Shown: one piece after another, positions 3,830 through 57,418 of the stretch
Layout: each line of letters opens with the position of its first letter
How positions within the stretch are numbered: position 1 is the stretch's first letter
Source of the DNA: a virus
Lineage: Duplodnaviria; Heunggongvirae; Uroviricota; Caudoviricetes
Length of the DNA stretch: 64,000 bases
Virus record (IMG/VR): IMGVR_UViG_3300029571_000006
Reading direction: 5' to 3' (one strand)
Translations under genes and position numbers: made by a program
The notes under the pieces: generated by a model
What the model was told of the DNA's origin: nothing
The model's database searches: none
What the model saw: only the letters and a program-made list of their open reading frames with translations

Positions 3830-4257
3830 TCCTTAGCCTCCTCCTCTTCTTTGTGTAAGACAATATTTGAATATTTTTGAAAACAATCAATCGCTTCCCT
3901 GACTTTGATTTCTCTATCTGGAGTGCGCCATCGTTTCTCATCGCCATAGTAAATCTCTCTGACGTTGCACCACGCCATAACAACTGGCTTGTTTGGATTC
4001 TTGACCGTATGAGAACATATAAGCACGATTGCCTGTTTACCGGATTTAGTGAAGTCGTCTACCATTCTTTGAAGTGCCAATCTCTGACCGATTGGAATCT
4101 CTGAATCTCCATACTTCACCTCGAAAATTATGTATTTTGAGTCTTTGTACTCAATCACACCGTCTATATCTGTTGGATACATACCGCCATCTACAGCGCA
4201 TCCCTTGAAGTCTATAAGCTGTTTCATCTTGCGCTTGTTATGGATTCTGCTTTCCAT
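3826..4257 (-). CDS. VRR-NUC domain nuclease
   Basis: PTDIDGVIEY...YIIFEVKYGDSEIPIGQRLALQRM fits the VRR-NUC PD..(D/E)VK pattern. ATG after RBS GAGAGGTGAG (the track start is a GTG). Confidence 0.4.
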   Translation of the reverse strand: MESRIHNKRKMKQLIDFKGCAVDGGMYPTDIDGVIEYKDSKYIIFEVKYGDSEIPIGQRLALQRMVDDFTKSGKQAIVLICSHTVKNPNKPVVMAWCNVREIYYGDEKRWRTPDREIKVREAIDCFQKYSNIVLHKEEEEAKE

Positions 4258-4270
4258 TGAACTCACCTCT

Positions 4271-15263: not shown

Positions 15264-15306
15264 TTGTTATCTCCTTTCAGTTTTATTGTGGGCTGTTACA
15301 CCCTAG

Positions 15307-15378
15307 CAGGGGTAGTTGGATTTGAACCAACGAATTTAGCAGTCAAAGTGCTATGCCTTACCGCTTGGCGATACCCCC
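15307..15378 (-). tRNA. tRNA-Gln (anticodon UUG)
   Basis: Cloverleaf by eye: acceptor GGGGGTA/TACCCCT, D-arm GCCAAGCGGTAAGGC, anticodon arm TAGCA-CTTTGAC-TGCTA (UUG), T-arm GTTGG-TTCAAAT-CCAAC, discriminator G. Close to E. coli tRNA-Gln. Confidence 0.7.
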
Positions 15379-21294: not shown

Positions 21295-22134
21295 CTATAC
21301 CTCCAATAAAATAAGCTCATCGATATACAGTCTTCCTTCTCCCTTGAATATTGGGATCTCTTTGTCGATAACCCACGCATTCTCTGATTCACTAGAATCT
21401 CTTAATTCGCATGTTTCTGTCCTGTCTGCAGAAATACTCACGATACGACGATTCTTAACACAGCAACTTCCTCTCTTTTGATGGGAAGGTAAATCGTTCC
21501 AGTTGATTTCCTTTTGCGTCATCAACATATCCTGAATCTGATTACATGTTTTGTGCTGTAATTCTTTGTGACTAAAGTAAGCCTGTCCAAGCATCTGTAT
21601 AGAATTTCTACTCGCATCGAGCTGTCTCCAGTAGATATTGTTCGTTACTTCTTCCTTTGGAATATTAAAAACTCTGGCATCAAACATAGCACCTTTGTTA
21701 ATCGCTTTTGCGTAAATTCCAAACTGCTTCGTGATTTCGTCTCCCGAACCACTATTTGCATACTTAACAGCGTACCTCTTCATCTTGCGATTAAATTCAA
21801 GTGTTGCCATACTCGCTACAATACTGCACATTTTCTGTACTTTGTAATCGAACCATGCATCGGATTCAAGCCTCTTATAATCAGTTAAAACCAATGTAAT
21901 TTCATCTGATTGTGTATATCCAAGCACACAGCCTTGAATATTCTCACACAGATATTTCATCGTATCCTGCATAGCAGACATTAAAACTTCGTCAAATGGC
22001 TTTTGAAAACCTTTTGTAAATGTGTGAAACGCCCGACCATCAACTCTGATGATTACGGGCGTTCTTCTCATTAACATATTTTTTGACACTGCTTCATATT
22101 TCTTCATTCGTTTTGCAAGTGCTGATGTATCCAT
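21295..22134 (-). CDS. Thg1-like protein (tRNA-His guanylyltransferase family, 3'-5' nucleotide addition)
   Basis: VIIRVDGRAFHTFT and SDEITLVL match the Thg1/TLP family signature. RBS AAAGGAGG. Confidence 0.55.
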   Translation of the reverse strand: MDTSALAKRMKKYEAVSKNMLMRRTPVIIRVDGRAFHTFTKGFQKPFDEVLMSAMQDTMKYLCENIQGCVLGYTQSDEITLVLTDYKRLESDAWFDYKVQKMCSIVASMATLEFNRKMKRYAVKYANSGSGDEITKQFGIYAKAINKGAMFDARVFNIPKEEVTNNIYWRQLDASRNSIQMLGQAYFSHKELQHKTCNQIQDMLMTQKEINWNDLPSHQKRGSCCVKNRRIVSISADRTETCELRDSSESENAWVIDKEIPIFKGEGRLYIDELILLEV

Positions 22135-27051: not shown

Positions 27052-27867
27052 CTACCCCGCAAAATTCTCGACTTCTACTATGTTACTGTCCATCAGATAA
27101 TTCCTTGTTCTTCCTCCAAGATTCAATTCCTTATACGCAGCTTCGATTTCCTCGGAAGTGATTCCGATGTAATCCAGCGTCTGTGCGGGCGAAGAATGAT
27201 TCAGCATCTTCTGCAAAAGCAAAAGCTTTCTGCTATCATTGTTCGACATCACCATCTGGTGATAGCAAAATGTTTTCCGTAAACTATGTGTAGCAATCCT
27301 TATGTTCAGGTGCAAATCGACCGCAATTCCTTTTAAAATCCGGTCTATTGACTGTTTTGATAATGGCTGATTCGTTGATTTCCCCCTATTGGATTCGCTA
27401 CGAAATAGATAATCACTCAACGTAACGCCTGGCGTATTCTCAAGATATAAAGTTACCGCCTCTATAACGGCGGTATTGATTGTGATATATCTATTCTTTT
27501 TTCTTTTCCTTGTATTTCTTGTTTTCTTTTCAAATACTGGGAAGTTATCACGAAATGTGAAATTATCATTGATAAGATTTGAGAATCTCAGCATCCTTAA
27601 ATCGCTGACTCGAAGTCCAAAGTTGATGCCGACTATGAATAGCATGTTATCTCTGTATCTTTTATTAGAAATGAGAAATTCAGAAATTGCATAGATATCA
27701 TCCAGACTTTTAATTGGCTCCGCAGCATGTTCCGGTGCTAATTCGCAATGGGTTTCCTCTTTCGCAGGAGCAATTAAACCGGCTGCGGACTTAACCTTAC
27801 TTCTCTGTAGTGCCTGTAAATCAATTACCTTATTTTTAGCATCTGCAATATTTACAATTTCACCCAA
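27052..27867 (-). CDS. Tyrosine recombinase / phage integrase family protein
   Basis: Box I GLRVSDL, HxLRxT (ATHSLRKTFCY), C-terminal LNHSSPAQTLDYIGITSEE with the catalytic Tyr. TTG start after GGAGGTG. Confidence 0.7.
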   Translation of the reverse strand: MGEIVNIADAKNKVIDLQALQRSKVKSAAGLIAPAKEETHCELAPEHAAEPIKSLDDIYAISEFLISNKRYRDNMLFIVGINFGLRVSDLRMLRFSNLINDNFTFRDNFPVFEKKTRNTRKRKKNRYITINTAVIEAVTLYLENTPGVTLSDYLFRSESNRGKSTNQPLSKQSIDRILKGIAVDLHLNIRIATHSLRKTFCYHQMVMSNNDSRKLLLLQKMLNHSSPAQTLDYIGITSEEIEAAYKELNLGGRTRNYLMDSNIVEVENFAG

Positions 27868-27879
27868 AGCTTACACCTC

Positions 27880-28908
27880 CTAAATTAGTCCTCTTACAAC
27901 TCTTTCGTTTACGTCCATCACAAATTCCTGTATTGCCTTATAGTCTGGCTTTTCAGGAAGATCTGTATTTTCTTTTGCATACTTCATCTTCTTTTCGTAG
28001 TCATCGACCATTTCAAAGAACTCCGGTATTGGCTGTCTATTACCATCAAGGTATTCACCATTTCTGATTGACATCAGCAGTTCATGTTCTTTCTCTCTGA
28101 ATGTTACAATCTCTTTTCTCTCAAGAATATCAAGGCACATCATATAGAGCCTGATTAGATGCATCATATGCTTTCCTAATTTGTTATGCTCTATCGCATT
28201 CTTATTTCTTTTCCCTACCTTGGCGTAGTCCTTCACCACATTATGCATTTCAGACCACATTGATTTATAATCCCGAAGTGGATATCTTGTTAAATGCACA
28301 TCCATATAAATTTCGGAATCCATATCTTCCCTATCCGACTTATCGATATACAACTTGATCGCGTCATCCGGATATTCAAAATATCTTTCTTTGAAGTCTG
28401 CACCCACGTTACGTATACTGTTTAATATGTGTTGCTCCCGCTGCGCTTGACCGACAAGCCTTGCTGCTTTATTATCAAGTCTTCTAAGCTGAGCCGTAGC
28501 ATATCCACCGAAAGCCTGTGCCGCTTTCTTTGAAAGGAACAAATCCTTATTATGTAATAATTCCTGTCCTACAGGAGACAGAAATAAATAATGCTCAGGC
28601 TTTAACCCAAGCATCTCAATCGTATTTGGATTGCAATTACAAAGCAAACTTATTAACTTATTGAACGCATACACTGTAGTATCCGTTTTCTCATCAACAA
28701 ACTGCTCGTAATGTTGATTTGTAAGAATTTCTTCCTTACTATTCAGAGCGCATCCTCTTACATCAAGGTCAGATGTCTCGTTATTTGTTCCATATGCATG
28801 ACTTCCTCCAAGTCCGATAAGGATGATTCTGTTTCCGAGGTGATCGTTATTTCTAAGGAAATTGTATTCCTCCGACGAGACCATATTTTTAATTGTTTGC
28901 AAATCCAT
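27880..28908 (-). CDS. Nucleotidyltransferase (minimal Pol-beta-fold NTase) with helical C-terminal domain
   Basis: ILIGLGGSHAYGTNNETSDLDVRG = GS...SDxD NTase signature. RBS GGAGGAG before MDLQTIKN. Confidence 0.5.
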   Translation of the reverse strand: MDLQTIKNMVSSEEYNFLRNNDHLGNRIILIGLGGSHAYGTNNETSDLDVRGCALNSKEEILTNQHYEQFVDEKTDTTVYAFNKLISLLCNCNPNTIEMLGLKPEHYLFLSPVGQELLHNKDLFLSKKAAQAFGGYATAQLRRLDNKAARLVGQAQREQHILNSIRNVGADFKERYFEYPDDAIKLYIDKSDREDMDSEIYMDVHLTRYPLRDYKSMWSEMHNVVKDYAKVGKRNKNAIEHNKLGKHMMHLIRLYMMCLDILERKEIVTFREKEHELLMSIRNGEYLDGNRQPIPEFFEMVDDYEKKMKYAKENTDLPEKPDYKAIQEFVMDVNERVVRGLI

Positions 28909-28910
28909 CT

Positions 28911-29154
28911 TACTCCTCCATAATGAATTCATGGATGCTACTCATATAATTCTGAACTTCTTCATCAGAGCATTTCTCAAAGCTTAAACTCAACGGCTTT
29001 GTCAGGTCTAAGCTGAAAATCCCCATAATTGATTTAGCATCAATGATATATCTTCCAGATTGCAGGAACACATCTCCGTCTACTCTGGATGTTTATTTAC
29101 GAACTCCTTAACTTTGTCAATAGAATTTAACATTACTTTACACATGATAATCAT
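28911..29154 (-). pseudogene. HPr-like phosphocarrier-domain gene interrupted by a -1 frameshift near 29080 and lacking the HARPA histidine motif
   Basis: Frame a: MIIMCKVMLNSIDKVKEFVNKHPE*. Frame b: VDGDVFLQSGRYIIDAKSIMGIFSLDLTKPLSLSFEKCSDEEVQNYMSSIHEFIMEE* (KSIMG-type HPr core). Confidence 0.3.
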
Positions 29155-29174
29155 CTCCTCTTCTTTATAATAAA

Positions 29175-29330
29175 GCGGGTGTGGATTCGCACCACACATA
29201 GCCCCTCACTCCCTTCTACCAAATCAGACCCAGTATCGTCAGCTATTTCGCTGTCTAAGATACCGACGGAATTGAACCGCTAGGGGAACCTATCTGTCAT
29301 TAGCGTCTACCTATTCCGCCACCGCATTAT
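29175..29330 (-). other. tRNA-like / degenerate tRNA region. A tRNA-Leu-type D-arm and two T-arm-like hairpins; no clean cloverleaf.
   Basis: Minus strand: AATGCGGTGGCGGAATAGGTAGACGC (Leu-type D-arm), GCGGTTCAATTCCGTC and GTGTGGTGCGAATCCACACCCGC (T-arm-like). Confidence 0.25.
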
Positions 29331-29331
29331 A

Positions 29332-29532
29332 TCAATCGACTATAATTTTATGACCGTCTATTTCAGTTATCTCGTGTACAAAATAATACATTGGACACGG
29401 GAGCTTTGAGAAGATTTCCTCCTCAAACTTCCTTTTTACATCTTCTTCATTATTTGCGACCATTAAGCAAGTCTCATTATCGCAATCATCCATATAATTT
29501 ATTTTATACAACTTCATAGATAAACCCTCCAC
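29332..29532 (-). CDS. Hypothetical small protein
   Basis: 66-codon ORF. Confidence 0.3.
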   Translation of the reverse strand: MEGLSMKLYKINYMDDCDNETCLMVANNEEDVKRKFEEEIFSKLPCPMYYFVHEITEIDGHKIIVD

Positions 29533-29534
29533 TG

Positions 29535-29732
29535 TTAAGCTTTACTTAATTGATAGCATGAGCAAAAGAATCTCGGTAAAGACTCTACACTCCAATCAAA
29601 CATTACTTTATCTTTTGCCTCGCATACATAATAATCTGGAAGTCCAGAGCACTTTGGAGTCCGAAGAGTTTTATGTATGCAATATTTACACCTTTTGTGT
29701 CTTTTTCTATATCTAACTACCTTTTCATCCAT
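29535..29732 (-). CDS. Hypothetical small Cys-rich basic protein
   Basis: 65-codon ORF, CKYC...CSG...C...CSC. Confidence 0.3.
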   Translation of the reverse strand: MDEKVVRYRKRHKRCKYCIHKTLRTPKCSGLPDYYVCEAKDKVMFDWSVESLPRFFCSCYQLSKA

Positions 29733-29761
29733 AATAACTATCAGCCTTTCTTAAATATAAA

Positions 29762-30089
29762 TGGAGCTGAGGGGAGTCGAACCCCTGTCCAAAAATATTA
29801 CTCACTATGAATCTTTACGCTGTTTTGGAATCATGTACTGATTTCTATCCACCACTCTGTTCTTAACTGTCTCAACCAATACAGGTGTTCATTTACAGAG
29901 AACCGTATACAAATTATGCTTGTTTTTGAACCTCAGTATCTACCAGCAATATCTCAATACATTTTGGTGTAGCAACTTAGGCTACTGCTAACATCTGTCT
30001 GTTTGCGTTTGTGTTTAATAGTTGATGATTAAGTCATCACTCTAGCGAATTCATAACTTTCATACCCCTGTCGAAACCTTTACAGCCCC
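29762..30089 (-). ncRNA. ssrA: tmRNA (SsrA), phage-encoded
   Basis: 5' GGGGCTGTAAAGGTTTCGACAGGGG and 3' GGACAGGGGTTCGACTCCCCTCAGCTCCA match tmRNA tRNA-like ends. Acceptor GGGGCTG/CAGCTCC includes the G3-U identity pair. Tag-like reading frame ...GCAAACAGACAGATGTTAGCAGTAGCCTAA (…ANRQMLAVA*). Similar to the B. subtilis tmRNA ends. Confidence 0.75.
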
Positions 30090-30368
30090 CGAAAATCCAT
30101 CCAGCTATCGCCCTGTTTACTGGTGGTAGGAGGCTCGTTTCCTCCTATGTCTGGTCACGCGGTTACGTCGCTTCTGCAGGCTCCAAACTATTCTCCCGTA
30201 ACCCGGATACCGATATCACCTAAGTCGGAAGGGTTCTCTCCTCAAAAACTACCCAAGACTTTGGAGTGTTGCTCGTTATCAACGCACTTATCTGTTTTCA
30301 TGCACTGAATAAATCATATACCGAGCAAAGTCTTCTACAATAGGTGTTACAGATACCGCCTATTGTCT

Positions 30369-30408
30369 GCTGTAGAAAATCAACAGGGCAGATGTGACTC
30401 CACCCTGT
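30369..30408 (-). terminator. Rho-independent terminator after gene 30421..30771
   Basis: Minus-strand hairpin ACAGGG-N14-CCCTGT followed by TGATTTTCT. Confidence 0.45.
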
Positions 30409-30420
30409 CAAACATCAATT

Positions 30421-30771
30421 TTATAAACCAAGTTCCTGAATGACAGGTAAAACCTCGTCTTTTAATTCAGGATAGAACTTGTTGAGCGTCTCTCTCGCAT
30501 TTAATGGTTTGTCTGGCTTTGTATATCTTGCACATTCCCAGTCCACTACCATTTGGACAAAATCACTATGTGTCTTTGCCTTAATAGAATGATGTCTGGA
30601 ATGATTCCTATGCCAGTTATGCACTGATTTATAATCAAAAATCATATACAGAAACACCTTATCCAAATCATGAAGGATTCCTCTCAGGGTGTTATGTCCA
30701 AGCAGTTCTTTCTCTACTCTTCTGAATGCTTTTCTGTGCTTAACCGTATAGATAATTTTGTCTTTCTGCAT
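30421..30771 (-). CDS. Hypothetical protein (His-rich)
   Basis: 116-codon ORF. Confidence 0.4.
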   Translation of the reverse strand: MQKDKIIYTVKHRKAFRRVEKELLGHNTLRGILHDLDKVFLYMIFDYKSVHNWHRNHSRHHSIKAKTHSDFVQMVVDWECARYTKPDKPLNARETLNKFYPELKDEVLPVIQELGL

Positions 30772-32088: not shown

Positions 32089-32670
32089 CTACTCTGCGTC
32101 AATTCCGTACTGTCTGCAAAGAGCTGCAAGACCTCCGTTATATCCGCTACCAACTGCTTTAAATTTCCATTCACCGTTGTGTCGGTAAATCTCTGCAACA
32201 ACGATGGCTGTTTCTGTAGAGAAGTCTTCGCTCAGGTCAAATCTCATCAGTTCTTCTCCTGTGTCTGCGTCAACAACTCTTACGTATGCGTTTTCTACCA
32301 TTCCAAAATTCTGGAGTCTGCTTTCTGCATCGTAAATTGTTACAGTTACAGCGATTGATTCGTAATCATCCGGAACCTTGTCAAGTTTGATGTTGATTAC
32401 CTCATCATCTCCCTCTCCTTCGCCTGTTCGATTGTCGCCCATGTGAACTACGCTCTTTGAATTGTGTGCCAGATTTCCATAGAATACAAAGTCTCCATCC
32501 GATCCGACTTTACCATTTTCTTTTGTCATAAACACGGATGCATCTAGGTCAAAATCAGATTCTCCGTCGTAGTGATTGATGTCCCACCCAAGACCTACAA
32601 ATATATTCTTTAAAGAAGGGCGACCTTTCGTAAGGTCTACCCTCTGCCCTTTACTTAATAATACTGACAT
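32089..32670 (-). CDS. TerD-domain protein (tellurium-resistance TerD/TerE/TerZ family) paralogue 1
   Basis: KGQRVDLTKG, GLGWD, DLDASVF, GDNRTGEGEGDDE(V/T)I, EWKF(K/N)A(V/I)G motifs. Confidence 0.8.
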   Translation of the reverse strand: MSVLLSKGQRVDLTKGRPSLKNIFVGLGWDINHYDGESDFDLDASVFMTKENGKVGSDGDFVFYGNLAHNSKSVVHMGDNRTGEGEGDDEVINIKLDKVPDDYESIAVTVTIYDAESRLQNFGMVENAYVRVVDADTGEELMRFDLSEDFSTETAIVVAEIYRHNGEWKFKAVGSGYNGGLAALCRQYGIDAE

Positions 32671-44394: not shown

Positions 44395-45267
44395 TTATTT
44401 ACCGTTCGCATCTACAACCGTTGCATCTGCTCCCTGTACCGTAACCCATCCATGCTTCAGACGAGCTTCTGCCTCTGTCATCTGAATAAGTTCCGGTGTA
44501 AGGCTTGCTGATTTTAACTGATTCGCCTCAGCCTCTGCTTTTGCGGCAGTCACTTTGATATCGGCTTCATTCTGCGCCTTAATAAGTGCTGTCTCAGCCT
44601 GTACTTTTGCAGTCTCCTGTTCAACCTGTGCCTGCTGTTTCTGTTGTAATGCCGTTACCCTGTTGTCAATCGACTCTTTCAGCTTATCATCTGGATGAAC
44701 ATCAATAATACTTGCATCTAATACCTGAATGCCATATTCCTTTTCAAATGCATTATTCAAATATTCTGTAATCTTATTGTTGATTTCACTACGATTGCCG
44801 GAATAGATATCCATCATTGAATAGTCTGTTGTAATCTCAGACACCTTTGACTTCAGAACAGTTTTTACTCTGCTATTTACAATAGCCTCTCCGTCCATAC
44901 CTTTGAACTTCTTATATGTATCCACGAGTGTATCCGGATTGAATCTGTAAGACATCTGGAAACTAATTGCGAGCATAGCATCATCAGATGTTGACACTTT
45001 GAATGAATCGTCTCCTTCGCTACCCTCACGACTATCTTTACTCAGGATAATCTGCTCATTACTGATCGTGAAATTCTTTACTTTCTTAGTCGGAGATACT
45101 ATGTTCCAGCCTGTGCTGAGAGTCTCACCGGATACGCCGCCGTTAATGTTGTACACAACACCCTCATATCCCACCGGAATCTTTTCAACGCACATAATTA
45201 CTCCTACAACCACCGTAATCATAACGATAGCTGTAACAATAGCTCCGATTAAACCTTTTTTCTTCAT
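44395..45267 (-). CDS. SPFH/Band-7 (stomatin/prohibitin/HflK-like) membrane protein
   Basis: N-terminal TM, SPFH core (ISFQMSYRFNP...), C-terminal coiled coil. Confidence 0.6.
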   Translation of the reverse strand: MKKKGLIGAIVTAIVMITVVVGVIMCVEKIPVGYEGVVYNINGGVSGETLSTGWNIVSPTKKVKNFTISNEQIILSKDSREGSEGDDSFKVSTSDDAMLAISFQMSYRFNPDTLVDTYKKFKGMDGEAIVNSRVKTVLKSKVSEITTDYSMMDIYSGNRSEINNKITEYLNNAFEKEYGIQVLDASIIDVHPDDKLKESIDNRVTALQQKQQAQVEQETAKVQAETALIKAQNEADIKVTAAKAEAEANQLKSASLTPELIQMTEAEARLKHGWVTVQGADATVVDANGK

Positions 45268-57344: not shown

Positions 57345-57418
57345 TGGATCGTATCCGACTCGAACGGATGACCGGTCGGTTATGAGCCGACTGCTCTAAC
57401 CCACTGAGCTAACGATCC
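57345..57418 (-). tRNA. tRNA-Met (anticodon CAU; could also be initiator or lysidine-Ile type)
   Basis: GGATCGT-TA-GCTC-AGTGGGTTA-GAGC-A-GTCGG-CTCATAA-CCGAC-CGGTC-ATCCG-TTCGAGT-CGGAT-ACGATCC-A. Clean cloverleaf. Confidence 0.75.

What the first reader, a model, noticed from the sequence alone, without database searches (positions are those of the whole stretch)
27052..30420. Integrase, nucleotidyltransferase, frameshifted HPr-like gene, tRNA-like debris and tmRNA: an integration/recombination hotspot
A tyrosine integrase (27052-27867) sits in an otherwise lytic-looking replication/metabolism genome. It is followed within 2.2 kb by a degenerate tRNA-like region (29175-29330: Leu-type D-arm and two T-arm-like hairpins but no foldable cloverleaf) and a complete tmRNA (29762-30089). 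tRNA and ssrA 3' ends are classic att sites. The arrangement suggests past site-specific recombination events or a mobile cassette. The 330 bp between the tmRNA 5' end and gene 30421 carry at least three strong hairpins and no ORF.
Basis: partly seen in the sequence, partly recalled or inferred. Interest (0 to 1): 0.55.

Follow-up and report, generated by a model that had tools for sequence, protein, structure and literature searches.

The report
Phage tRNA-like scaffold RNA, not debris
The supposed "tRNA debris" next to a phage integrase and tmRNA is a conserved, folded 158-nt RNA built from two tRNA-like halves with no anticodon. It belongs to a large family of phage tRNA-mimic RNAs that matched no Rfam 15 model and that I did not find described, while the idea that the region is an integration site finds no support.

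Summary
All the listed features are present at the stated coordinates. These are a tyrosine recombinase, an RlaP nucleotidyltransferase, an HPr-like gene with a 1-nt frameshift, a complete tmRNA, and a tRNA-like stretch that no tRNA finder accepts.

The interpretation mostly fails.
- The identical integrase protein is indexed in 1578 blocks of public assemblies. The longest contigs are 207-239 kb and none exceeds 1 Mb, so this is a common gut jumbo phage with no sign of an integrated copy.
- No att-like repeats were found.
- The region is mosaic among relatives, in the usual way of phage accessory regions.

The "debris" (29171-29328, minus strand) is a structured RNA. It has a 7-bp acceptor stem, a Leu-type D-arm and a 6-bp T-arm with an unusual UGCRAAU loop. 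The anticodon arm is replaced by a helix carrying a second, permuted tRNA-like module. Compensatory changes support nearly every helix.

The same scaffold occurs in at least 360 distinct phage sequences and 23 bacterial species genomes. Its cargo ranges from about 0 to 150 nt and is hypervariable. About a quarter of copies lie within 1 kb of a same-strand tRNA, and some sit inside phage tRNA arrays. Rfam 15 has no matching family.

The function is inferred, not shown. I think it most likely acts as a non-decoding tRNA mimic in a phage RNA-repair and anti-defence island.

The parts
29171..29328 (-). tRNA-like scaffold RNA of 158 nt including the discriminator A. It has two tRNA-like halves and no anticodon arm.
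   Evidence: Conserved in 6 relatives with 8 compensatory pairs. The 20-sequence alignment A4 has 93.8% of cells paired against 71% in shuffles, and 33 of 42 pairs show a change on both sides. Not detected by ARAGORN or Rfam. Coordinates checked.
29322..29328 (-). Outer acceptor stem, 5' strand AAUGCGG. It pairs with 29172-29178 (CCGCUUU). U8 and G9 follow.
   Evidence: GCGG/CCGC changes to UCGG/CCGA and GUGG/CCAC in relatives. Family-wide, the 7 pairs are 86-99% paired and use all Watson-Crick pair types.
29303..29319 (-). D-arm 1, Leu-type: GCG-GAAUAGGUAGA-CGC.
   Evidence: Invariant in relatives. The stem pairs are kept in 87-88 of 90 family members.
29294..29302 (-). Single-stranded linker UAAUGACAG, at the position where an anticodon arm would be.
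   Evidence: No pairing partner in my model. The family has a linker of variable length here. A 4-bp mini-hairpin at this position is found in only 66 of 343 members, against about 40 in controls.
29285..29293 (-). Central helix, 5' strand AUA.GGUUCC. It pairs with 29198-29205 (GGGGCUAU).
   Evidence: 7 of 8 pairs show compensatory changes in A4.
29266..29280 (-). T-arm 2 (inner): GCGG-UUCAAUU-CCGU, with a canonical T-loop.
   Evidence: 100% paired, with 3 of 4 pairs covarying.
29231..29265 (-). Inner acceptor-like 7-bp helix CGGUAUC/GAUACUG, closed by the cap hairpin CAGC-GAAAUA-GCUG.
   Evidence: Helix 5 has 7 of 7 pairs covarying and helix 6 has 4 of 4. The order T-arm, closed acceptor-like stem, D-arm matches the YrlA layout described in PMC4201824.
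29212..29228 (-). D-arm 2-like element: UCU-GAUUUGGUAGA-AGG.
   Evidence: Invariant in the close clade. It is the weakest helix across the wider class, with 77.5% of cells paired and missing in several members.
29179..29197 (-). T-arm 1 (outer): a 6-bp stem GUGUGG/CCACAC with the loop UGCGAAU, which has G at position 55.
   Evidence: Pairs covary (GUGUGG, GUAUGG, GCAUGG). Family-wide they are 96-100% paired.
29762..30089 (-). Phage tmRNA (ssrA) with tag ANRQMLAVA*, a G3:U70 pair and no encoded CCA.
   Evidence: ARAGORN. Rfam RF00023 at 91 bits, E=4e-34. Present in L003-L007.
30090..30379 (-). Conserved non-coding stretch upstream of the tmRNA; role unknown (leader, promoter or another RNA).
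   Evidence: Together with the tmRNA it is 95% identical to L005, while the flanks are 72-84% identical. No Rfam match. One compensatory pair in a hairpin.
30380..30411 (-). Terminator-like hairpin after gene 30421-30771.
   Evidence: 13-bp stem followed by TTTTCT.
28910..29154 (-). HPr-like gene, broken here by a 1-nt deletion in an A run (29092-29094).
   Evidence: Alignment with intact relatives L142, L145 and L147. The repaired protein gives a weak PTS-HPr match.
27880..28908 (-). RlaP-family (Pol-beta fold) nucleotidyltransferase.
   Evidence: PF10127, E=7e-16. PHROG 388, E=3e-55. Found in 32 related phage loci.
27052..27867 (-). Short tyrosine recombinase (271 aa). The catalytic domain is complete and there is no recognisable N-terminal core-binding domain.
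   Evidence: PF00589. PHROG 216. Only the C-terminal half of Xer models matches. It is an indel among relatives.
29332..29732 (-). Two small ORFs (66 and 65 aa) of unknown function between the tmRNA and the scaffold RNA.
   Evidence: ORF list. No family match. A homologue of orf65 directly precedes the RNA in L035 and L036.

Best explanation
SHOWN.
- The window comes from a very common gut jumbo phage of about 210-240 kb.
- Coordinates 27-31 kb are an accessory island concerned with RNA, not an integration scar.
- The "tRNA debris" is a 158-nt structured RNA transcribed on the gene strand. It has a tRNA-Leu-like frame: a 7-bp acceptor stem, U8-G9, a Leu-type D-arm, a conserved A-U before the T-stem, and a 6-bp T-stem with a UGCRAAU loop.
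- Its anticodon arm is replaced by a short linker and a helix. That helix carries a second, circularly permuted tRNA-like module: a T-arm, a closed acceptor-like hairpin and a D-arm-like element.
- It belongs to a large phage family in which this frame is constant and the cargo varies from almost nothing to about 150 nt.

INFERRED.
- The RNA lies 4 nt after one cistron and just ahead of the ribosome-binding site of the next. Relatives sit head-to-tail with tRNAs. I therefore expect it to be cut out by the tRNA-processing enzymes (RNase P at the 5' end, RNase Z or exonucleases plus the CCA-adding enzyme at the 3' end) and to accumulate as a stable RNA.
- It cannot decode because it has no anticodon.
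- My preferred mechanism is a tRNA mimic that presents the acceptor end and the elbow (here two elbows) to proteins that recognise tRNAs. It would act as a decoy or adaptor in the conflict over tRNA damage and repair, alongside the phage's RlaP, Thg1-like enzyme, Pnkp-RNA ligase and tmRNA.

Rough odds: functional structured RNA about 0.9; processed like a tRNA about 0.6; decoy or adaptor for tRNA-binding defence or repair proteins about 0.3-0.35.
For: Structure.
- 8 compensatory pairs among 5 close sequences. 96% of cells pair, against 35-46% when the 3' partners are slid by 1-3 columns.
- In 20 diverse class members, 33 of 42 pairs change on both sides, and no shuffle out of 500 reaches the observed values.
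- G-U pairs fit the minus strand only.

Family.
- Pattern scans give 20, at least 120, at least 120, 107 and 28 viral contigs for successive cargo lengths, and 23 bacterial species genomes.
- Among 343 unique sequences the acceptor and T-stem pairs are 86-100% paired with all pair types. The cargo falls into 239 BLAST clusters, 184 of them singletons.
- ARAGORN of 339 and 0 of 20 of these sequences a tRNA. No Rfam family matches.

Processing context.
- Copies abut canonical tRNAs in arrays, for example L138 and L072 with four copies each.
- 23 of 391 copies lie within 30 nt of a same-strand tRNA and 109 within 1 kb.

Island context.
- RlaP, a Thg1-like protein, a fused kinase-phosphatase-RNA ligase, and NAD-salvage genes.

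No integration.
-.
Against: - There is no expression, end-mapping or binding evidence. Everything about processing and function is inferred.
- The discriminator base is not conserved (A 48%, U 33%) and no CCA is encoded, so charging by LeuRS is not a general property.
- No protein is consistently linked to the RNA.
- 271 of 391 copies have no same-strand tRNA in the DNA held for their locus. Many lie near terminase genes, which would also fit a cis-acting role in mRNA.
- The pattern scans fix 26 scaffold bases, so the conservation of those bases is by construction.
- Alignment A4 was fitted to the model, so its pair counts lean towards the structure.
- D-arm 2 is weakly supported outside the close clade.
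- A decoy without an anticodon loop could not absorb anticodon nucleases.
Confidence: 0.55

Rival explanations
1. The tRNA-like stretch and the tmRNA mark att sites or scars of past site-specific recombination by the neighbouring integrase. The region is a mobile cassette and the phage can integrate.
For: - An intact tyrosine recombinase lies 1.3 kb from the RNA.
- The integrase is an indel among relatives, and the tmRNA-RlaP interval is swapped in L005-L007.
- tRNA and ssrA genes are classic attB sites (general knowledge).
Against: - The RNA keeps both halves of every helix through compensatory changes.
- There are no att-like repeats and no second copy of the tmRNA 3' end.
- The identical integrase is indexed in 1578 assembly blocks, and no contig carrying it exceeds 1 Mb.
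- No non-coding DNA flanks the integrase gene.
- The scaffold RNA family occurs in hundreds of unrelated phages, and no integrase is consistently found next to it.
Confidence: 0.07
2. It is a tRNA-Leu gene interrupted by an intron or insertion. After splicing it becomes a decoding tRNA.
For: - It has a Leu-type D-arm, acceptor stem and T-arm.
- Some relatives sit in tRNA arrays.
- At a lowered threshold ARAGORN proposes a 'tRNA-Pro with a 54-nt intron'.
Against: - ARAGORN with introns finds nothing at its default threshold, and the low-threshold model is poor.
- No anticodon stem flanks the insert.
- Members with almost no insert (N=17-46) still lack an anticodon arm, and 0 of 20 are called tRNA.
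- No group I intron or any other Rfam match.
- The insert itself covaries as a folded domain.
Confidence: 0.04
3. It is a Y RNA of the YrlA type, embedded in a tRNA frame. It would work with a Ro60/Rsr-like protein and exonucleases in RNA quality control or repair.
For: - The inner module has the YrlA order: stem, T-arm, closed acceptor-like stem-loop, D-arm (PMC4201824).
- RNA-repair genes lie nearby.
- A weak YrlA match (34.9 bits) occurs in one related tRNA array, at L097:5547-5646.
Against: - The Rfam YrlA model does not match the window RNA even at E<=10.
- The GNCGAA Ro-binding motif is absent from the corresponding position (and the sequence itself).
- No TROVE-domain protein was found among the window ORFs I scanned.
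- Most family members carry other cargo: only 39 of 343 have an inner T-loop.
Confidence: 0.12
4. It is a cis-acting element of the polycistronic mRNA. A tRNA-like fold would direct RNase P or RNase Z cleavage, or block exonucleases, to uncouple or stabilise neighbouring cistrons. The excised RNA itself would have no role.
For: - It lies between cistrons: 4 nt after the orf66 stop codon and about 17 nt before the HPr-like start codon.
- Cargo-free mini forms exist. The one in phiFL2A lies in the gap between the ArpU gene and terS.
- Many copies lie just upstream of terminase genes.
Against: - A processing signal would not need a large, covarying cargo domain.
- It would not need up to four different copies in one tRNA array.
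- The strongly conserved D-arm and the odd T-loop suggest recognition of the elbow, not just of a minihelix.
Confidence: 0.2

Closest known systems
Phage T4 species 1 RNA (rnaC), with species 2 RNA (rnaD)
   Same: - It is a stable small RNA encoded inside a phage tRNA cluster.
- Its ends pair like an acceptor stem, it has a canonical T-arm, and long hairpins stand where the anticodon region would be (NC_000866 70908-71046).
- Its function remains unknown, to my knowledge.
   Different: - Model R1 detects no similarity.
- rnaC has no Leu-type D-arm, a normal UUCGAAU T-loop and no second tRNA-like module.
- It comes from a proteobacterial phage.
Bacterial Y RNA YrlA (Rfam RF02553)
   Same: - It is a tRNA mimic with a T-arm, a D-arm and a closed acceptor-like stem-loop in permuted order, reached through a helix (PMC4201824).
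- It is associated with RNA repair and decay loci.
- The M. smegmatis YrlA is cut by RNase P and receives CCA.
   Different: - In the window RNA this module is only the cargo. The RNA's ends form a second, normally ordered tRNA-like frame.
- There is no Rfam match, no Ro-binding motif and no TROVE gene among the window ORFs scanned.
tmRNA tRNA-like domain
   Same: An acceptor stem and T-arm are kept, and the anticodon arm is replaced by a long helix that leads to a large inserted domain. It is a non-decoding tRNA mimic, and the same phage also encodes one.
   Different: - The window RNA has a true D-arm with a stem.
- It has no G3:U70 pair, no tag reading frame and no pseudoknot ring.
- Its T-loop is UGCRAAU.
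Engineered 'tRNA scaffold' for RNA expression (Ponchon and Dardel), and the MHV68 TMER RNAs
   Same: The design principle is the same: a tRNA frame lets cellular tRNA enzymes process and protect an unrelated RNA domain. In the engineered scaffold the cargo is placed where the anticodon arm was. This comparison rests on my own knowledge; TMERs are mentioned in the preprint 10.1101/2022.05.09.491269 listed.
   Different: One is artificial and the other is from a eukaryotic virus. In TMERs the cargo lies 3' of the tRNA-like part rather than inside it.
Type II tRNA-Leu
   Same: - The D-arm sequence and its 3-bp stem, U8, A14, and a possible A15:U48 pair.
- The helix that ends just before position 48 sits where the long variable arm would be.
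   Different: - There is no anticodon arm.
- The acceptor/T stack is 7/6 rather than 7/5.
- It has G55 in the T-loop, a variable discriminator and no CCA.
- ARAGORN rejects 358 of 359 family sequences.

Membership tests
Canonical tRNA (RF00005) | A cloverleaf with an anticodon stem-loop, detected by tRNA finders | tested here: not met
   ARAGORN finds nothing at 29171-29328. Rfam RF00005 gives no hit there at E<=10. Across the family, 1 of 339 and 0 of 20 sequences are called tRNA.
Canonical tRNA (RF00005) | A 7-bp acceptor stem, a D-arm with G18 and G19, and a T-arm | tested here: met
   Two departures: the T-stem has 6 bp and the T-loop is UGCRAAU.
Intron-containing tRNA | An intron in the anticodon loop, flanked by an anticodon stem; or a group I intron core | tested here: not met
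   ARAGORN -i finds nothing at its default threshold. No group I or group II Rfam hit. There is no flanking anticodon stem.
tmRNA (RF00023), for 29762-30089 | A tRNA-like domain with G3:U70, a tag ORF with a resume codon, and pseudoknots, scoring above the Rfam gathering threshold | tested here: met
   91 bits against a gathering score of 47. ARAGORN reports the tag ANRQMLAVA*. The acceptor GGGGCUG/CAGCUCC gives a G3:U70 pair.
YrlA / bacterial Y RNA (RF02553) | A match to the covariance model | tested here: not met
   No hit at E<=10 in 28800-30500.
YrlA / bacterial Y RNA (RF02553) | Encoded next to a Ro60/TROVE gene, with a GNCGAA(N)G motif near the 5' end | tested here: not met
   No TROVE hit among about 50 window ORFs scanned. 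The motif is not at the corresponding position. The rest of the roughly 220-kb genome was not seen.
YrlA / bacterial Y RNA (RF02553) | A permuted tRNA-like domain in the order T-arm, closed acceptor-like stem, D-arm | tested here: met
   The inner module at 29212-29280. The helices covary, although the D-arm-like part only weakly.
Phage attP / tRNA-fragment att site | A partial tRNA or ssrA 3' segment identical to the host gene, next to an integrase, with integrated copies flanked by repeats | tested here: not met
   Both halves of the RNA are present and covary. No repeats were found. No contig carrying the integrase exceeds 1 Mb among 1578 indexed blocks. Identity to the host gene could not be tested because the host is unknown.
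Tyrosine recombinase / phage integrase (PF00589) | A catalytic domain with the R-K-H-R-H/W-Y residues | tested here: met
   PF00589, E=3.8e-16. The residues are R86, K115, H194, R197, H224 and Y233.
Tyrosine recombinase / phage integrase (PF00589) | An N-terminal core-binding or arm-binding domain, and demonstrated integration | tested here: inconclusive
   Only the C-terminal half of Xer models matches, at 23-53 bits against cut-offs of 220-335. About 55 N-terminal residues remain unassigned. Activity cannot be tested with these tools.
RlaP nucleotidyltransferase (PF10127) | A Pfam match above the cut-off | tested here: met
   59.1 bits against a cut-off of 23.
HPr (PF00381) | A Pfam match above the cut-off and a phosphorylatable His15 region | tested here: inconclusive
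   The repaired protein scores 22.6 bits against a cut-off of 23. NCBIfam scores are far below their cut-offs. The His15 region was not examined.
T4 rnaC-type stable RNA | Sequence and structure homology to T4 species 1 RNA | tested here: not met
   R1 gives no hit on rnaC or rnaD. Only the layout is similar.

The most novel reading that the evidence does not exclude
Phages of Firmicutes and some other bacteria carry a modular RNA platform. It consists of a fixed, anticodon-less tRNA-Leu-like handle that the host tRNA machinery processes and protects, fused to a fast-evolving cargo domain. In this jumbo phage the cargo is a second tRNA mimic. The platform would work as a programmable decoy or adaptor against host factors that recognise or damage tRNAs, such as toxins that modify the acceptor end. 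If so, it is a previously unrecognised class of phage counter-defence RNA, and it would also explain long-mysterious RNAs such as T4 species 1.
Probability: 0.25. Interest if true: 0.85.

Novelty: new variant of a known kind. Interest (0 to 1): 0.68.

Why it matters
tRNA mimics such as tmRNA, Y RNAs and viral tRNA-like structures are few, and each has taught something about how cells recognise tRNAs.

This one is a family of hundreds of phage sequences. It has a strictly kept tRNA frame, no anticodon, and a cargo that differs from phage to phage. It is absent from Rfam 15 and left unannotated in the two isolated phage genomes I examined (phiFL2A and KLEB27-1).

Three things make it worth pursuing:
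- It gives a testable natural counterpart to the engineered tRNA scaffold.
- It offers a possible handle on the unexplained stable RNAs of T4.
- It is a candidate player in the current arms race around tRNA cleavage, tRNA-end modification and RNA repair.

Cultivable carriers exist: Enterococcus phage phiFL2A, Bacillus phage KLEB27-1, and presumed prophages (not verified here) in B. glycinifermentans, Paenibacillus macerans and Clostridium magnum. Experiments are therefore feasible.

The original integration reading, by contrast, is ordinary and mostly unsupported.

Tried and rejected
- **ARAGORN with introns and lowered thresholds.** Only poor models appeared, including a 'tRNA-Pro' with a 54-nt intron and an absurd 810-nt intron. 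Rejected.
- **Rfam at E<=10 on the region, and at E<=0.1 on 17 family loci.** No family covers the element. Weak tmRNA_permuted and SNORD74 hits inside the tmRNA are noise.
- **A hammerhead-like reading of GAAA...CUGACGA.** The spacing is impossible. Rejected by eye.
- **Minimum-free-energy folding of the element alone.** z=-0.1, which is uninformative. The structure came from comparative analysis instead.
- **A search for a protein always linked to the RNA.** None was found. The commonest neighbours are terminase subunits, HNH and MazG genes.
- **HPr-like plus RlaP as a fixed gene pair.** This holds only in L003, L004 and L027.
- **A vestigial anticodon mini-hairpin after the D-arm.** It is only modestly enriched (66 against about 40 of 343), so it is not a family feature.
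- **The Ro-binding GNCGAA motif in the cap loop.** It is in the wrong place compared with YrlA.
- **T4 rnaC as a homologue.** The layout is analogous but no homology is detected.
- **Direct repeats and a second tmRNA 3' end as att evidence.** Nothing was found.
- **Covariation in the 290 nt upstream of the tmRNA.** There is too little variation. Two of the eight rows were mis-registered by my own guessed coordinates and should be ignored.
- **Five literature searches.** No description of this family was found. The library lacks most subscription journals, so prior description cannot be excluded.

Full report
**1. What is in the region**

All genes in the window lie on the minus strand. Reading in the direction of transcription, the order is as follows.
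- A 116-aa ORF (30421-30771).
- A terminator-like hairpin (30380-30411).
- About 290 nt of non-coding DNA.
- A tmRNA (29762-30089). ARAGORN reports the tag ANRQMLAVA*, and Rfam RF00023 scores 91 bits against a gathering score of 47.
- Two small ORFs of 65 and 66 aa.
- The tRNA-like stretch (29171-29328).
- An HPr-like gene (28910-29154).
- An RlaP-family nucleotidyltransferase (27880-28908; PF10127).
- A 271-aa tyrosine recombinase (27052-27867; PF00589, PHROG 216).

The HPr-like gene is frameshifted only in this window. The window has AAA at 29092-29094, whereas three near-identical contigs have AAAA and an intact gene. This is either a private mutation or a homopolymer assembly error.

**2. 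What kind of genome this is, and whether it integrates**

The identical integrase protein is indexed in 1578 blocks of public assemblies. The longest contigs that carry it are 207-239 kb, and no block has a contig above 1 Mb. IMG/VR holds close relatives on contigs of 66-117 kb.

The window also encodes DNA polymerase III alpha, DnaB, DnaG and ERF. It has an NAD-salvage set (NAMPT, a PRPP-synthetase-like protein, nicotinamidase and NAD synthase), three TerD proteins, a P-type ATPase, a Thg1-like enzyme, and a fused polynucleotide kinase-phosphatase-RNA ligase.

This is a large and very common gut phage with a strong investment in RNA repair and counter-defence. I found nothing that indicates lysogeny.
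- No att-like direct repeats occur between 24 and 33 kb.
- The tmRNA 3' end is unique in the window.
- No non-coding DNA flanks the integrase gene.
- The integrase matches only the catalytic half of Xer models, far below their cut-offs, although its catalytic residues are intact.

The integrase gene is present in the five closest relatives and absent at the same junction in L008 and L033. The segment between the tmRNA and RlaP differs in L005-L007. The region is therefore mosaic, as phage accessory regions usually are. That is the only sense in which "recombination hotspot" holds.

**3. The "debris" is a structured RNA**

BLAST found the 160-nt stretch in five other phage contigs at 88-98% identity. 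Almost every difference falls in a stem and keeps the pair.
- The outer stem GCGG/CCGC becomes UCGG/CCGA or GUGG/CCAC.
- The T-stem GUGUGG/CCACAC becomes GUAUGG/CCAUAC or GCAUGG/CCAUGC.

I derived a model by hand and tested it.
- On five sequences, 96% of cells pair and 8 pairs change on both sides. When the 3' partners are slid by 1-3 columns, only 35-46% pair and 0-1 pairs change on both sides.
- A covariance model built from these sequences (R1) found more distant members. On 20 sequences, 93.8% of cells pair, against 71% in shuffles. 33 of 42 pairs show changes on both sides, and none of 500 shuffles reaches the observed values. That alignment was fitted to the model, which inflates the figures somewhat, but the slid controls stay at 35-46%.

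The many G-U pairs fit only the minus strand, which is the gene strand.

**4. Anatomy of the RNA** (coordinates verified)

| Element | Sequence | Coordinates |
|---|---|---|
| Acceptor stem, 5' and 3' strands | AAUGCGG / CCGCUUU | 29322-29328 with 29172-29178 |
| Positions 8-9 | U, G | follow the 5' strand |
| D-arm 1 | GCG-GAAUAGGUAGA-CGC | 29303-29319 |
| Linker | 9 nt | 29294-29302 |
| Central helix | AUA.GGUUCC / GGGGCUAU | 29285-29293 with 29198-29205 |
| Inner T-arm (canonical loop) | GCGG-UUCAAUU-CCGU | 29266-29280 |
| Inner acceptor-like helix with cap hairpin | CGGUAUC/GAUACUG; CAGC-GAAAUA-GCUG | 29231-29265 |
| D-arm-like element | UCU-GAUUUGGUAGA-AGG | 29212-29228 |
| Outer T-arm (6-bp stem) | loop UGCGAAU | 29179-29197 |
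| Discriminator | A | 29171 |

There is no anticodon arm and no encoded CCA.

The molecule is therefore two tRNA-like bodies joined where their anticodon stems would be. The outer body has free ends. The inner one is circularly permuted and closed. The inner order (T-arm, closed acceptor-like stem, D-arm) is that of the bacterial Y RNA YrlA (PMC4201824). However, the Rfam YrlA model does not match, the Ro-binding motif is not in the corresponding place, and no TROVE protein was found among the window ORFs scanned.

D-arm 2 is the weakest part of the model outside the close clade.

Whether the AUA at 29291-29293 pairs with the UAU before the T-stem is open. Alternatively that A-U is free for a Levitt-type A15:U48 contact. 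The A-U is kept in 302 of 343 family members whatever precedes it.

**5. A large family**

R1 also found a weaker hit in L011 with the same outer frame but unrelated cargo. I then ran pattern scans that fix 16 bases of the acceptor and D-arm region and 10 bases of the T-arm. A scan of one genome per species returned 23 bacterial genomes, mostly Clostridia and Bacilli, plus an SR1 genome and MAGs assigned to Fusobacterium, Saprospirales and Desulfatibacillaceae.

In 343 unique sequences:
- The unfixed acceptor and T-stem positions pair in 86-100% of cases and use all Watson-Crick pair types. In the first 90 sequences, 97% of variable cells paired, against 59% after shuffling partners.
- The discriminator varies: A 48%, U 33%.
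- No CCA is encoded.
- The cargo falls into 239 BLAST clusters, 184 of them singletons.
- Only 39 have an inner T-loop like the window's.

ARAGORN of 339 and 0 of 20 of them a tRNA. Even the smallest members lack an anticodon arm, which argues against an intron reading. No Rfam 15 family matches.

Caveat: the 26 fixed bases are conserved by construction, and two scans were capped.

**6. Where the family sits**

Some phages carry several copies interleaved head-to-tail with canonical tRNAs. Examples are four copies each in L138 and L072, some directly abutting tRNA-Leu, tRNA-Thr or tRNA-Ser.
- Of 391 copies, 23 lie within 30 nt of a same-strand tRNA and 109 within 1 kb.
- 271 have no same-strand tRNA in the DNA held for their locus.

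The commonest neighbours are terminase subunits, HNH and MazG genes. No single protein is always linked to the RNA.

Two isolated phages carry unannotated versions.
- Bacillus phage vB_BauS_KLEB27-1 has a short-cargo form followed by a terminator.
- Enterococcus phage phiFL2A has a cargo-free mini form in the gap between the ArpU activator gene and terS.

In the window, the RNA starts 4 nt after the stop codon of the upstream ORF and ends just before the ribosome-binding site of the HPr-like gene.

**7. How it most likely works**

Shown: a conserved non-decoding tRNA-like fold, modular cargo, and for a minority of copies co-location and co-orientation with tRNAs.

Inferred:
- The RNA is released from polycistronic transcripts by RNase P and by RNase Z or the CCA-adding enzyme, like its tRNA neighbours. 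The tRNA frame then stabilises it, which is the same logic as the engineered tRNA scaffold (my own knowledge).
- The 13-bp acceptor/T stack, G55 and the variable discriminator argue against a role in translation.
- This phage also encodes RlaP, a Thg1-like 5'-end repair enzyme, a kinase-phosphatase-ligase and a tmRNA. My preferred reading is therefore a tRNA mimic that presents acceptor ends and elbows to tRNA-recognising proteins, acting as a decoy or adaptor in the conflict over tRNA damage. I put this at roughly 0.3.
- The main rival is a purely cis-acting mRNA processing or stability element (about 0.2). The cargo-free forms near terminase genes favour it. The covarying cargo and the multi-copy arrays count against it.
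- A Ro-dependent Y-RNA role (about 0.12), a scar or att site (about 0.07) and an interrupted true tRNA (about 0.04) follow.

**8. Comparison with what is known**

The nearest known analogue is T4 species 1 RNA (rnaC). It is a stable RNA in the T4 tRNA cluster with acceptor-like ends, a T-arm and long hairpins, and its function is unknown to my knowledge. R1 finds no homology to it. YrlA, the tmRNA tRNA-like domain and type II tRNA-Leu each share some features, as set out in the membership table.

Five full-text searches found no description of this family. The library is incomplete, so prior description cannot be ruled out.

I rate it a new variant of a known kind (tRNA-mimic non-coding RNAs).

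**9. Loose ends**

The 290 nt upstream of the tmRNA, together with the tmRNA, is 95% identical to L005, while the flanking genes are 72-84% identical. This points to constraint or recent exchange. There is no Rfam match and too little variation to test a structure.

**Verdict**

The integration interpretation is only loosely supported. The real interest lies in the tRNA-like scaffold RNA and its family.

Noticed in passing
L041-L457 (viral contigs) and L150-L172 (bacterial genomes); for example L138:2058-3246 and L072:13065-13803: A family of anticodon-less tRNA-Leu-like scaffold RNAs with hypervariable cargo (343 unique sequences, 239 cargo clusters). Some occur as several different copies interleaved with canonical tRNAs in phage tRNA arrays.
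   Followed up: yes
window:57512-57576 (-): A small tRNA-like hairpin set (acceptor-like stem GGGAA/UUCCC, a short hairpin, and a T-arm CCGGG-UUCAACU-CCCGG) about 95 nt from tRNA-Met (57345-57418). It gives a weak R1 hit (15.8 bits, E=0.21). Similar mini forms occur at L013:12630-12698, L028:4025-4092 and L015:12135-12213.
   Followed up: partly
window:30090-30379 (-): The non-coding stretch upstream of the tmRNA is more conserved (95% identical to L005, together with the tmRNA) than the flanking protein genes (72-84%). It has no Rfam match and its role is unknown.
   Followed up: partly
window:63385-63457 (-): A RAGATH-16 RNA motif, matched full-length at 88.9 bits against a gathering score of 65.6.
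   Followed up: no
window:51918-53081 (-): A reverse transcriptase closest to the retron St85 family model (170 bits, below the cut-off of 235), encoded by the phage. No retron ncRNA or DGR parts were looked for.
   Followed up: no
window:40714-42987 (-) and 21295-22134 (-): A fused polynucleotide kinase, metallophosphatase and T4 Rnl1-type RNA ligase (757 aa), and a Thg1-like 3'-5' polymerase. Together with RlaP and the tmRNA they form an extensive RNA and tRNA repair toolkit.
   Followed up: partly
window:22156-26407 (-): An NAD-salvage gene row: NAD synthase, NAMPT, a PRPP-synthetase-like protein and nicotinamidase. It resembles the phage NAD+ reconstitution pathways that counter NAD-depleting defences.
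   Followed up: no
window:15469-16425 (-), next to tRNA-Gln at 15306-15378: A second recombinase-like protein with an MrpR-type N-terminal core-binding domain (E=1.7e-13), directly beside a tRNA gene. The scan reported no catalytic-domain match.
   Followed up: no
window:32089-36503 (-): One confirmed TerD-domain gene (32089-32670) beside two similar-sized ORFs presumed to be TerD, not scanned here, followed by a P-type cation ATPase. An SPFH/Band 7 protein lies at 44395-45267.
   Followed up: no
L097:5547-5646 (-): A weak YrlA (Y RNA-like) match (34.9 bits against a gathering score of 69) in a phage tRNA array that also carries a double tRNA-like scaffold RNA at 4070-4260.
   Followed up: no
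L141 (scaffold element; cargo about 101 nt): One scaffold-like element whose cargo is an uninterrupted 34-codon ORF for a hydrophobic peptide (MGFTDILGWVFLGTVICCIIAGAVIFVKKVKLYP). Its D-arm region is atypical. It may be chance, or an mRNA-like cargo.
   Followed up: no
L175:2409-2547 (-) = phage T4 rnaC: T4 species 1 RNA folds much better than shuffles (z=-4.6) into acceptor-like ends, two long hairpins and a canonical T-arm. The layout is analogous to the scaffold family, but no homology was detected.
   Followed up: partly
L173:2640-2730 (phiFL2A, in the gap between the ArpU gene and terS): A second odd tRNA-like sequence (GGCGUGU...GGGUUCGAAUCC...ACGCCA) lies about 150 nt downstream of the mini scaffold element. 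It is not annotated in the record.
   Followed up: no
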